This document shows, one piece after another, positions 1-3,000 of a DNA stretch of 27,246 nucleotides (positions are counted from its first letter, which is position 1; the number at the start of each line of letters is the position of its first letter). The position numbers are program-made. Source of the DNA: Escherichia coli (GTDB lineage: Bacteria > Pseudomonadota > Gammaproteobacteria > Enterobacterales > Enterobacteriaceae); NCBI RefSeq assembly GCF_003334255.1, contig NZ_QOWU01000062.1; one strand, written 5' to 3'.

Positions 1-3000
1 TACTGCTTCAGAAAGTTCAGCAAAATCCATCTGGTAAAGTTCCATCAGATAAGTCAGCACGATATTCTGGTGAACGCTGCTGCCATACTTATCCGTCAGT
101 GTGATTGATTTACCAATCAGCTCAATCACATCACCACTGGTGCCGGACTTCATCGTGAACATCAGCGCCGCCATCCGGTGATAGTGTTCAATTTCATCAT
201 CGGTAAGCGTGCTGACATCCACCAGGCTGAATGGCTTTTGCTCGCCATAAATCTCGCGTCCGTACACCGGGTCATCCAGACAATCCACCCAGTTCATCGG
301 ATACGGATATGGCCGCTTTGCACCATGATAAAACAGCACCGGGATCACTACTGGCGCACACTTATGCTCTTCAATATGCTGCTCCATCACCGCCAGAATA
401 TAACGCATCATGCGCAGTGGGATAAATTTATCCGGCGAACTCTGGTGTTCTATTAAAGTATAAATGTACCCGTCCTTCCCGTCATTTGTCTTCATGCTGA
501 GCAAAACATCGCAGGCAGACTGACGTAAACTTTCTGCCACAAACGTCGTGGATTCAAGTTCTATTGTATCAAGATTACAGCGGGATTTCTGATACGGTGT
601 CAATACCTGTTCAAGAAAGTCCCTCGCGGCTGCAGGGTCCTTCAGTGTCTTCCTGAACGCCGCATCATGTATCAGGCTGGTTTTATTAACTTTTTCACTC
701 ACGGAACCTCCGGATAAAAAAGTGGGGCATAACGCCCCATGGTTGATGTTACATGGCATGAATAATTCGTCGTTCCATGCCATACCCGAGCCCCATAAAG
801 GGAATATCATCGTCAAAGTCCATTGGTGGTGCACCATTACCCGTTGATGTTGTCTGGGGTGCACGACCAGCCTGTCCGGCCGTCTTCGGCGGCTGTCCCC
901 AGCCCCCTTGTGCAGGTGCAGAAGCACCATTACCGGCAGTGCCCTGCTGACGCAGTGAACCCAGCATCTGCATGACACCATTCACTCCCACAACAACCTC
1001 AGTTGAATAACGGTCCACACCGTTCTGCTGGTCAAACCACTTACGGGTTTTCAGCTGGCCTTCGATATAGACCTTAGAGCCCTTACGAAGATACTCTCCG
1101 GCGATTTCTGCCAGTTTTCCATAAATAACAATGCGGTGCCATTCGGTCACTTCCTTCATTTCACCGCTCTGTTTATCCTTCCAGGTATCACTGGTCGCCA
1201 GTGACAAATTCGCCACTGCACCACCACCGTTAGGAAAGTACCTGACCTCCGGCTCCTGTCCCAGATGCCCAAGCAGGATGACTTTGTTTACGCCACGTGA
1301 AGCCATACTCCCCCCTCATTGCCAGTCATAACGCTGTGTCCAGGTACCATTTTTCAGCGCCTGCTCAGCCTGATCATGTTTTTTGAAATACTCTTCAGAT
1401 TCACGGGACACCGGCCCCTCAGAACACTGAGTGCCAATATAATATCCACGCGTACTTTTGAGGATTTCCAGGGGTAATGTATAGCCAGCCGCAGCTGCAA
1501 GAATGCCGTTTTGACGGTTCATATGTGTTTCCTTAAAGTTTGCAAAAACGATAAGAAAACAGACCTCCCTGATGGTGGTCTGTTTTCATCATCAGGGAGG
1601 CTGAGGGAAATACGATCAGAAAGAGTTTTCTGCGTATTGACGTTTAGTTGTGCCATTTTGCGGTGGCAGGGACTCCGCTTTTTCAGCCTTATAGACCTGC
1701 TCCTGGCCTATTTTAATCCAGTCCACCTTGATCAGGCGGGCTTTCAGACTGACGCGCTGCTCACCGGCATGCTCTCCCTTGTTCAGGGTGAAGATATCGG
1801 TGGCCAGGTTGCTTAACGCAAAGCCAAGCAAAACCTTACGGTCCTCATCCACTGCTTTCTGGCAGCGAGAGATCAGGGTGGTTGCATCTTTACCAACAAC
1901 CGTAACATCAAAACGCGTATAGGACGGATTGTCCGTTGGTCCACTCAGTGCGTTAATCACGCAGCAAAGGAACGAGCCATTCTGATGGTTAACCTGACGC
2001 ACATTACTGAGGTACCCCAGACCTTTTACGGTCAGATTGAAGTATTCAGCTTTTGCAGAAGAAGTATTTGTTGCAGACATGATGTGTTCTCCATGGATAA
2101 AAAAAGATATGACGGAGAACACCACCGCCCCTGACGGGTGTGATAGTTCCCGTCGGGGGGCCGGAATCAGCTGTATTTCCGGCTGTCTGTGCAGTTAAAC
2201 ATACCTCGATCACCATAACTGTGGTGATATCCGTTCCCAGAGGTTAAACGGATGTACCGCCATAAAGGCATCCTCTTTCAGGCTACGAGGATATTGCAAT
2301 CACCCGAAGGCGCTTCTCTCAGATTGCTGAAACATTGGCTGGCAGTCACCCGAAGGCGCTCCTCTCAGACTGCTGGAACATTGGCTGGTCGCCGGAGCGA
2401 CATGTGATCACCCGAAGGCGTCCTTCTCAGATCACCAGGACATTGGTTGGCTGCAAGGCAGCGGTTTAGCATGCTCATTTTTAAAACACCTGAACACAAA
2501 GTCAAGAACAAAACGTCATTAAATAATTATCTCACCGAGATGTTCACTCTTTGAAATGAGCATAAAAAAGGCGCTGAATCTTCAGCGCCGTCATGGGGTT
2601 ACCAGCCCTTCGGTCATCTCACTTGTCTCCGGGGATCACTCCCGGCGCGGTTTTCACGGAGTTCATACGCCTTGCAACTCAACCGGACGCTGGCCGTTGC
2701 GGATCAGAAACAAAACAACGCCGTTGTTTAATCGCTGCTCTGTTTCCCACTGATCATGGGGGTATACATCAAAGCGTATGCACTTTAACAAATAAAAAAA
2801 AGGAAGTAATCATCATCCACGCTTTTTAATTTTTCTGCCGCCGCGTTTACTGTGTGACGTTTTCTGCTCTGAAATAACGCCTTTACACTCCGGGTAACGC
2901 TGGCAACTCCAGAACTCTCCGTTCTTACCTTTCAGCTTCCGCATTCTGCCCTGGCAAAGTGGGCATTCCGGCGTCACTGGTGCCGTAATCTGCAATTGCT

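What the first reader, a model, noticed from the sequence alone, without database searches (positions are those of the whole stretch)
1..702. Rpn-family (YhgA-like) nuclease gene as element cargo beside ssb
Seen: a partial minus-strand ORF with Rpn-like motifs starts at 702, 46 bp from the ssb stop. Established: Rpn proteins are PD-(D/E)XK nucleases that promote RecA-independent recombination and are often found on mobile DNA. Inference: it may contribute to cargo shuffling in this island. The rest of the gene lies outside the window.
Basis: partly seen in the sequence, partly recalled or inferred. Interest (0 to 1): 0.3.

Follow-up and report, generated by a model that had tools for sequence, protein, structure and literature searches.

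The report
Rpn toxin-antitoxin nuclease gene on ICE
The window's first 702 bases are the front three-quarters of an intact Rpn-family DNA-cutting enzyme gene, which most likely forms a self-inhibiting toxin-antitoxin (probably anti-phage or element-stabilising) module in a swappable slot of a conjugative island; it is a new example of a known kind, not a cargo-shuffling device.

Summary
Window 1-702 (minus strand) is an open 234-codon N-terminal part of an Rpn/YhgA-like gene. It has a GTG start at 702 and lies 46 bp from the ssb stop. It matches Pfam PF04754 at E=9e-60 and scores above the TIGR01784 cut-off.

The window is identical to E. coli STEC2018-553, where the gene is 307 aa. The residues needed for RpnA activity are all present and all lie inside the window: D13, D65, E85, Q87.

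Just outside the window are three hallmarks of the RpnL/RpnS "gene-within-gene" toxin-antitoxin (Zhong et al. 2023):
- A conserved in-frame SD+ATG at M246 would give a 62-aa RpnS.
- A four-amino-acid repeat tract varies in copy number between strains (307/311 aa and 314/318/322 aa).
- A tandem downstream copy (rpnSs) carries one extra repeat.

The gene sits in a fixed slot between ssb and pilL of an SPI-7/PFGI-1-type ICE inserted at tRNA-Phe. Two ICEs that are 96-100% identical in the flanks carry rpn alleles that are only about 45-67% identical. Related ICEs carry DUF29 or DUF4160/DUF2442 genes in the slot, or nothing.

The family call is therefore right, and "cargo" is roughly right because the slot is variable. 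"Cargo shuffling" is unsupported. This is a new member of a known kind, of low to moderate interest.

The parts
1..702 (-). N-terminal 234 of 307 codons of rpnL, the ICE-borne Rpn family nuclease. It has a GTG start at 700-702. The remaining 73 codons and the stop lie 222 nt beyond window position 1.
   Evidence: PF04754 E=9e-60; TIGR01784 81 bits against a cut-off of 52. The full gene is read from identical DNA at L010 2709-3632 and L001 14779-15702.
442..510 (-). PD-(D/E)XK catalytic core: D65 (508-510), E85 (448-450), Q87 (442-444). These correspond to RpnA D63/E82/Q84.
   Evidence: Invariant columns in alignments A1 and A2. The motif check across 14 Rpn proteins is. RpnA mutant phenotypes are in PMC5350276.
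664..669 (-). H12-D13 of the N-terminal HDxxF motif. D13 corresponds to RpnA D11, which is required for all RpnA phenotypes.
   Evidence: PMC5350276.
1..126 (-). The inside-window end of the upstream copy of a tandem direct repeat (units 430/442 bp apart, 95-97% identical). The repeat duplicates the rpn 3' part together with its terminator. The downstream copy (rpnSs) lies wholly outside the window.
   Evidence: the repeat finder on L010. The offset is window x = L010 2930+x.
703..748 (-). The ssb-rpn spacer. It holds a terminator-like hairpin at 723-739, followed by a T run and then GGAGG at 707-711. The hairpin is kept with different stem and loop bases in diverged ICE lineages.
   Evidence: 7-pair stem, TGGGGCGTTATGCCCCA + CTTTTTTATC. 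One search gives the spacer comparison across L001/L009/L012/L016/L018/L021.
749..1306 (-). ssb of the ICE replication/maintenance module, the upstream neighbour on the same strand.
   Evidence: (TIGR00621 172 bits against a cut-off of 54).
1616..2080 (-). STY4534-family (DUF3577) ICE replication protein. It is the marker used to sample related ICEs.
   Evidence: (NF040584 197.7 bits against a cut-off of 160).
16567..16614 (+). A 3' fragment of tRNA-Phe, taken to be the ICE attachment repeat. It marks the ICE end next to the chromosomal gspM. Identification of the tRNA sequence is from memory.
   Evidence: Sequence. ARAGORN finds no intact tRNA. The gsp operon lies beyond it.

Best explanation
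Window 1-702 encodes the nuclease part of an ICE-borne RpnL protein of 307 aa. It consists of a PD-(D/E)XK core, a helical middle and a three-helix C-terminal oligomerisation domain.

The same gene, 34 nt beyond the window edge, carries an in-frame Shine-Dalgarno+ATG at M246. This should produce a 62-aa RpnS made of the C-terminal domain alone.

By analogy with the characterised E. coli RpnA/B/C/P2 systems, the module would work as follows:
- RpnL is a Mg-dependent, largely sequence-nonspecific DNA endonuclease that is toxic on its own.
- RpnS binds it through the shared helical domain and blocks cleavage.
- The number of four-residue repeats in that helix sets which RpnS matches which RpnL.

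A tandem duplicate of the 3' part (rpnSs) follows the gene and has one extra repeat. Under the published rule it should not neutralise its neighbour's RpnL. It more likely serves as a recombination cassette for switching the C-terminal/antitoxin domain.

The module occupies a recombination-swappable accessory slot between the ssb (replication/maintenance) and pilL (transfer) modules of an SPI-7/PFGI-1-type ICE inserted at tRNA-Phe. Its likely benefit is abortive-infection-type phage defence, stabilisation (addiction) of the ICE, or both.

Shown here:
- family membership
- intact catalytic residues
- the conserved internal start
- repeat-number variation
- the rpnSs duplicate
- slot position and allele replacement

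Inferred from homologues only:
- nuclease activity
- toxicity
- neutralisation by RpnS
- phage defence or addiction
For: - Family: PF04754 E=9e-60 and 2e-59. TIGR01784 is above its cut-off.
- Catalytic residues H12/D13, D65, E85, Q87, R97 and D168 are invariant with K-12 RpnA/B/C/E and with 30 homologues. Their necessity in RpnA is shown in PMC5350276.
- Internal start: 'aagggggtgatcATG' aligns with the experimentally verified rpnA site 'aaggagagtttaATG' (M244). It is kept in all ICE alleles and all five K-12 paralogues (PMC10400941).
- Repeats: LEKG/RAEG-type units start 11 residues after M246, giving lengths 307/311, 314/318/322 and 314/322 aa. This matches the published description.
- rpnSs: a tandem 430/442-bp repeat is present. 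The 66-aa product of the source strain's rpnSs is identical to the RpnL C-terminus of strains S19-651 and G1/2, whose own rpnSs has a different tail. This is the domain fusion/exchange described.
- Slot: rpn follows ssb by 46-48 bp in E. coli, E. albertii, Salmonella and metagenome ICEs.
- Divergence: rpn is the most diverged gene of the block, at 44-47% identity against 68-92% for topB, DUF3577, ssb and pilL.
- Allele replacement: L009 against L016 drops from 96-100% to 45-67% nucleotide identity exactly across rpn.
- Other ICEs hold TA-like or unknown small genes in the slot: DUF4160+DUF2442, DUF29.
Against: - No experiment exists for this allele. It is only 34-39% identical to RpnA/B/C/E and at most 44% identical to any plasmid Rpn.
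- Its C-terminal domain matches no Pfam family; only weak HTH-like hits appear.
- PADLOC has no model that hits it.
- The consensus scan found no sigma-70 promoter upstream of the internal start, so separate RpnS transcription is unproven.
- Foldseek found no significant PDB match and phmmer found none.
- Only one Rpn (plasmid RpnP2) has been shown to reduce phage plaquing, and only modestly and under particular conditions.
- RpnE of K-12 carries the same motifs yet is annotated as inactive.
Confidence: 0.7

Rival explanations
1. One reading: Rpn is a recombination-promoting nuclease whose role on the island is to create breaks that shuffle or acquire cargo (RecA-independent recombination).
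For: - Over-expressed RpnA-D raise RecA-independent recombinant recovery (PMC5350276).
- Zhong et al. speculate that RpnL might itself help generate repeat expansion and the rpnSs duplications.
- The rpn locus is the most rearranged spot of the block.
Against: - Rearrangements are confined to the rpn locus. Homologous recombination between 95-97% identical direct repeats and allele replacement with conserved flanks explain them.
- The neighbouring modules are collinear in every ICE examined.
- The recombination effect was seen only on over-expression, with RpnS unknowingly co-expressed.
Confidence: 0.1
2. Rpn is a working part of the ICE replication/transfer machinery. It would be a nuclease acting on ICE DNA intermediates, co-expressed with ssb and topB.
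For: - It has the same strand and a fixed 46-48 bp spacing after ssb in many lineages.
- The hairpin plus SD is conserved in the spacer.
- In an ICEPm1-like element rpn follows the STY4534 gene directly.
Against: - Related ICEs lack it, or carry unrelated genes in the slot: A25, Salmonella and Pectobacterium with DUF29, Klebsiella with DUF4160/DUF2442.
- Near-identical backbones carry alleles that are about 45% identical. Such divergence is not expected for a co-adapted core enzyme.
Confidence: 0.08
3. It is a transposase or IS remnant. Databases call it 'putative transposase' or 'ISNCY family transposase', and the downstream fragment is annotated 'transposase'.
For: Annotation strings only.
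Against: - There are no inverted repeats of 14 nt or more around the gene.
- It holds a fixed syntenic position rather than scattered insertion sites.
- No autonomous transposase is known with this fold, and rpn genes lack terminal repeats and target duplications (PMC10400941).
Confidence: 0.02
4. It is an intact-looking but functionally dead relic, like K-12 RpnE or the rpnD pseudogene.
For: RpnE keeps the same motifs yet is labelled inactive. rpnD of K-12 has an internal stop.
Against: - The ORF is intact in all 52 or more E. coli genomes with this allele group.
- The catalytic residues, internal start and SD are all kept across alleles that are only 44-50% identical. This argues for purifying selection on function.
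Confidence: 0.05

Closest known systems
E. coli K-12 RpnA (YhgA) and paralogues RpnB, RpnC, RpnE (Kingston et al. 2017, PMC5350276)
   Same: Same Pfam/TIGR family and the same length class (292-300 aa against 307 aa). The residues HD(11), D63, E82, Q84, R94 and the xDDE motif are invariant. The position of the C-terminal domain is the same.
   Different: Only 34-39% identical overall and 37-40% in the N-domain. It scores 174 bits against the 583-bit cut-off of the RpnA equivalog model, so it is not an orthologue of any K-12 paralogue. It is carried on an ICE rather than at a chromosomal core locus.
RpnL/RpnS gene-within-gene toxin-antitoxin with rpnSs copies, e.g. rpnE-ypaA, rpnC-rpnCSs, plasmid RpnP2 (Zhong et al. 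2023, PMC10400941)
   Same: An in-frame SD+ATG lies at the equivalent methionine. Four-residue repeats (one hydrophobic residue plus charged residues or Gly) begin 11 residues after it and vary in number between strains. A downstream tandem small copy is present, and there is evidence of fusion or exchange between rpn and rpnSs.
   Different: Expression of the small protein, toxicity and neutralisation are untested here. The tail sequence type of the window's allele has no Pfam match. In the source strain the rpnSs repeat number differs from that of its own RpnL. The module sits in a defined ICE slot, a context not reported in the papers I could search.
Accessory TA/abortive-infection genes in variable slots of SPI-7/PFGI-1/ICEHin1056-type ICEs
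   Same: It occupies the same inter-module position that holds DUF4160+DUF2442 or DUF29 genes in other members. An Abi-alpha gene lies nearby in another ICE.
   Different: Those genes are unrelated in sequence and fold. Their functions in ICEs are also untested.

Membership tests
Rpn / YhgA-like (Pfam PF04754 Transposase_31; NCBIfam TIGR01784; COG5464) | Significant match to the family profile over the conserved N-terminal ~200 residues | tested here: met
   PF04754 i-E 9e-60 (fragment) and 2.2e-59 (full length). TIGR01784 scores 81.2 bits against a cut-off of 52.1.
Rpn / YhgA-like | PD-(D/E)XK catalytic residues D...E-x-Q (RpnA D63, E82, Q84) plus the N-terminal HD (D11) | tested here: met
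   D65, E85, Q87 and H12-D13 are invariant in A1 and A2. All lie inside window 442-669.
Rpn / YhgA-like | PD-(D/E)XK alpha-beta-beta-beta-alpha-beta fold | tested here: inconclusive
Rpn / YhgA-like | Mg-dependent DNA endonuclease activity; toxicity and SOS induction on expression | not testable with these tools
   Needs biochemistry and genetics. Known for RpnA/B/C/D/P2 only.
Orthologue of a named K-12 paralogue (RpnA-E) | Score above the equivalog cut-off, or high identity to one paralogue | tested here: not met
   NF007361 (RpnA) scores 174.5 bits and NF007418 172.7 bits, both against a cut-off of 583. Identity is 34-39%. N-domain identity is 37-40%, whereas RpnA, RpnB and RpnE share 63-71% with one another.
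RpnL/RpnS gene-within-gene toxin-antitoxin | In-frame internal translation start with its own SD at the start of the C-terminal domain | tested here: met
   AAGGGGG-N5-ATG at M246 aligns with the validated rpnA M244 site. It is conserved in 8 ICE alleles and 5 K-12 genes. This is sequence evidence only, and the site lies 34 nt outside the window.
RpnL/RpnS gene-within-gene toxin-antitoxin | Internal promoter giving a separate short transcript | tested here: inconclusive
   The consensus sigma-70 scan found no site upstream of M246. The only hit lies far upstream, at L001 15485-15457. The scan is crude; dRNA-seq is needed.
RpnL/RpnS gene-within-gene toxin-antitoxin | Four-amino-acid repeats, 8-20 residues after the internal Met, varying in number among strains | tested here: met
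   EEKG[LEKG]RAEE gives 307 against 311 aa. The 314/318/322-aa series differs by RVEG/LEKG/RAEG units. L024 and L025 are 322 and 314 aa.
RpnL/RpnS gene-within-gene toxin-antitoxin | C-terminal three-helix bundle with a long first helix (dimerisation interface) | tested here: met
   The AF2 model has H239-270, H275-282 and H286-294. This is a prediction only. No sequence match to the RpnAS crystal chain was found.
RpnL/RpnS gene-within-gene toxin-antitoxin | RpnS binds the cognate RpnL and neutralises it; phage protection | not testable with these tools
PADLOC v2 has no matching model.
Insertion sequence / transposase | Terminal inverted repeats, target-site duplication, multiple insertion sites | tested here: not met
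   No inverted repeat of 14 nt or more lies in the 1.8 kb around the gene. It holds a single fixed syntenic position in every ICE examined.
SPI-7 / PFGI-1-type ICE (context of the gene) | dnaB-PI, ParA/ParB, STY4528, STY4534, TopB, SSB, PilL and TIGR037xx transfer genes; tRNA attachment site | tested here: met
   NCBIfam hits, RefSeq annotation of identical DNA and a tRNA-Phe 3' fragment at 16567-16614 next to gspM.

The most novel reading that the evidence does not exclude
The ssb-to-pilL position of SPI-7/PFGI-1-type ICEs may be a dedicated, recombination-swappable toxin-antitoxin slot. In it, RpnL would be made only by read-through of the conserved ssb terminator, that is, when the ICE replication operon is switched on. 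The Rpn module would then act mainly as an ICE addiction or ICE-versus-ICE competition device, with the four-residue repeat number and the silent rpnSs cassette providing switchable specificity, rather than as a host phage-defence gene.
Probability: 0.15. Interest if true: 0.5.

Novelty: new member of a known kind. Interest (0 to 1): 0.25.

Why it matters
If the reading is right, this conjugative island carries a self-contained nuclease toxin-antitoxin module. It is deeply diverged, only 34-39% identical to the studied proteins, and sits at a fixed hotspot where the allele is replaced.

That gives a natural series of alleles for testing how repeat number and tail type set RpnL-RpnS specificity. 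The series comprises two tail types, two to seven repeat units, and strains with and without a silent rpnSs cassette.

It also allows a test of whether Rpn modules stabilise mobile elements or defend their hosts.

It does not open a new class of system. The gene family, the gene-within-gene antitoxin, the repeats and the downstream copies have all been published, and RefSeq already names the gene.

Tried and rejected
- A sequence search of the PDB with the full protein found nothing.
- PADLOC gave no hit for Rpn or rpnSs, apart from a chance-level DpdH match at E=0.003.
- Pfam on the C-terminal domain and on rpnSs gave only weak HTH-like hits: DUF433, MerR-DNA-bind, HTH_68. There was no DUF4351 or other family.
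- The promoter scan found no internal promoter for RpnS.
- The supplementary data of Zhong et al. are not held, so I could not check whether this allele is in their E. coli survey.
- A literature search for Rpn on integrative conjugative elements found nothing relevant.
- The transposase/IS reading was rejected: there are no inverted repeats and the position is fixed.
- Orthology to RpnA-E was rejected.
- The plus-strand ORFs inside 1-702 (178-456 and 231-425) are antisense to a well-supported gene and were not pursued.
- I did not use the large genome-contig scan. The ICE family was sampled only through protein look-ups: six ICE lineages found via rpn homologues or E. coli DNA matches, and four more found via the STY4534 protein.
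Full report
**Observation.** Window 1-702 read on the minus strand is an uninterrupted 234-codon ORF that begins with GTG at 700-702 and runs off the left edge of the window. A GGAGG lies at 707-711. The ssb gene is at 749-1306 on the same strand, so the spacer is exactly 46 bp. The fragment matches Pfam PF04754 (Transposase_31, YhgA-like) at E=9e-60. It scores 81 bits on NCBIfam TIGR01784, 'Rpn family recombination-promoting nuclease/putative transposase', against a cut-off of 52.

**Source and full gene.** The first 3,300 bases of the window occur exactly in E. coli STEC2018-553 (NZ_CP075665.1; window x = L010 2930+x). Strain 2015C-3121 differs at one base in 1,400. In both strains RefSeq annotates a 307-aa Rpn-family protein, WP_032308780.1, with the same GTG start. 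222 nt of the gene lie outside the window.

**Catalytic residues.** I aligned the protein with K-12 RpnA, RpnB, RpnC and RpnE, which I fetched from NC_000913.3. Identity is 34-39%. The residues whose mutation abolishes RpnA activity are invariant: D13 (RpnA D11), D65 (D63), E85 (E82) and Q87 (Q84). R97 (R94) and D168 (D165) are invariant as well (mutant data in PMC5350276). They stay invariant in a 36-sequence alignment and in ten ICE-borne alleles. The protein is not an orthologue of a named paralogue: it scores 174 bits against the 583-bit cut-off of the RpnA model.

**What the newer literature adds.** Zhong et al. 2023 (PMC10400941) reported the following:
- rpn genes are genes-within-genes. 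An internal in-frame start gives a small protein (RpnS) consisting of the C-terminal domain.
- RpnS binds the toxic full-length nuclease (RpnL) and blocks it.
- Some rpn genes are followed by a second free-standing copy (rpnSs, e.g. ypaA).
- rpn genes are not transposases.
- A plasmid Rpn gives modest protection against T-even phages.

**The ICE gene has each sequence hallmark, all just outside the window.**
- *Internal start.* 'aagggggtgatcATG' at M246 aligns with the experimentally verified rpnA site 'aaggagagtttaATG' (M244). An SD plus ATG is kept at this position in every ICE allele except the ICEPm1-like one, which has a Met two residues earlier, and in all five K-12 genes. The predicted RpnS is 62 aa.
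- *Repeats.* Eleven residues after M246 the tract EEKG-RAEE of the window's allele becomes EEKG-LEKG-RAEE in strains S19-651 and G1/2 (307 against 311 aa). A sister allele group has 314, 318 and 322 aa through RVEG/LEKG/RAEG units. Another lineage has 314 and 322 aa.
- *rpnSs.* A tandem direct repeat, with units 430/442 bp apart and 95-97% identical, duplicates the last ~115 codons and the terminator. RefSeq calls the 122-aa ORF in it 'transposase'. From the conserved internal ATG it would give a 66-aa RpnSs with one more repeat than the RpnL beside it.
- *Domain exchange.* That 66-aa sequence is identical to the RpnL C-terminus of S19-651 and G1/2. Their own rpnSs carries a different tail (KKALEATYASVRRMSDMGMS...) that resembles the tail of the 322-aa allele. 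This is the fusion/exchange between rpn and rpnSs described by Zhong et al. Window bases 1-126 belong to the upstream copy of this repeat.

**Context.** The window is the left arm of an SPI-7/PFGI-1-type integrative conjugative element. All of the following genes are on the minus strand: ParA, dnaB-PI, ParB, a ParE-like toxin, STY4528, PFL_4669/AcaB, TopB, STY4534/DUF3577 and SSB. Beyond rpn lie pilL and the TIGR037xx transfer genes. A tRNA-Phe 3' fragment at 16567-16614 marks the element's end, and the chromosomal gsp type II secretion operon follows.

**Cargo or backbone?** rpn follows ssb by 46-48 bp in every close or moderately related ICE I looked at: E. coli, E. albertii, Salmonella enterica and gut metagenomes. 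This includes the ICE lineage that carries STY4534 protein P0135, which is on record in 9,757 blocks of the contig collection. In an ICEPm1-like element rpn follows the STY4534 gene directly.

The slot is not universal, however:
- E. coli A25 has neither ssb nor rpn there, and has an Abi-alpha gene nearby.
- A Salmonella lineage and Pectobacterium carry DUF29 genes.
- Klebsiella oxytoca carries DUF4160+DUF2442 plus three DUF29 genes.

rpn is also the fastest-diverging gene of the block, at 44-47% identity where TopB, DUF3577, SSB and PilL are 68-92% identical. Most tellingly, an E. coli ICE and a Salmonella ICE are 96-100% identical in DNA through topB...ssb and again from pilL onward. Identity falls to 45-67% exactly across rpn. 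At least four deeply diverged Rpn lineages fill this position. So this is a variable accessory slot with allele replacement. That pattern is typical of defence or addiction genes, not of a co-adapted replication enzyme.

**Regulation (inference).** The ssb-rpn spacer holds a hairpin followed by a T run, 723-739 in the window, and then the SD. The hairpin is retained with different stem and loop bases in diverged ICEs. No promoter-like site lies between it and the start. RpnL may therefore be made only by read-through from the ssb operon. The scan found no internal promoter for RpnS, so this point stays open.

**Verdict.** 'Cargo' is roughly right. 'Cargo shuffling' has no support. The observed rearrangements are confined to the rpn locus and are explained by its own direct repeats, and the current literature points to a toxin-antitoxin/anti-phage role.

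The most likely mechanism is an RpnL nuclease toxin held in check by an intragenic RpnS, with a mismatched rpnSs cassette as a substrate for switching specificity. It would benefit the ICE through phage defence, stabilisation, or both. Activity, toxicity, neutralisation and biological role are inferred from homologues that are 34-39% identical and remain untested.

About 1% of complete E. coli genomes (54 of 5,426) carry this allele group. About 100 genomes carry a place covering at least 80% of the STY4534-topB backbone query. This is a new, diverged member of a known kind in a context not yet described, and of modest interest.

Noticed in passing
window 2251-2402 (-): A STAXI RNA motif (Rfam RF01728, 134 bits against a gathering score of 40.5) lies in the 690-bp gap between the STY4534-family gene and topB. 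A ~205-bp piece covering it (window ~2198-2402) matches unannotated DNA at ~92% identity in hundreds of E. coli genomes, mostly O157:H7, that lack this ICE backbone.
   Followed up: partly
window 16567-16614 and 16763-27246: A 48-nt 3' fragment of tRNA-Phe, one G short of the gene as I recall it, marks the ICE end. ARAGORN finds no intact tRNA. The rest of the window is the chromosomal gsp type II secretion operon, only ~95-97% identical to the best E. coli matches listed.
   Followed up: partly
L010 2267-2635 / L001 14337-14705 (outside the window, downstream of rpn): RefSeq annotates the duplicated rpn 3' fragment as a 122-aa 'transposase' (WP_096955009.1), and as 'hypothetical protein' in other strains. 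It is more likely a 61-66-aa rpnSs read from the conserved internal ATG, so the annotation is probably wrong.
   Followed up: yes
alignment columns 2000-2800 (topB-STY4534 intergenic region; window ~2126-2812): This is a second patch where the otherwise 96-100% identical E. coli (L009) and Salmonella (L016) ICE backbones drop to 56-77% identity. It includes the STAXI region.
   Followed up: no
L022 5342-6103; L026 4606-5040; L028 4854-7252; L029 4688-5785: Other members of the ICE family carry different small genes in or near the ssb-to-pilL slot: Abi-alpha, DUF29 (up to three tandem copies), a DUF4160+DUF2442 pair, and a 195-aa protein with no family. This suggests a general accessory hotspot.
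   Followed up: partly
window 9456-9704 (-) and 7887-9202 (-): The ICE maintenance module also carries a ParE-family toxin-like gene and two ead/Ea22-like (phage-type) genes, according to the RefSeq annotation of near-identical DNA.
   Followed up: no
plasmid collection: Rpn homologues occur in 4,784 plasmid records, 3,010 of them predicted to be conjugative. None is more than 44% identical to the ICE allele, so Rpn modules are common on conjugative elements generally.
   Followed up: no
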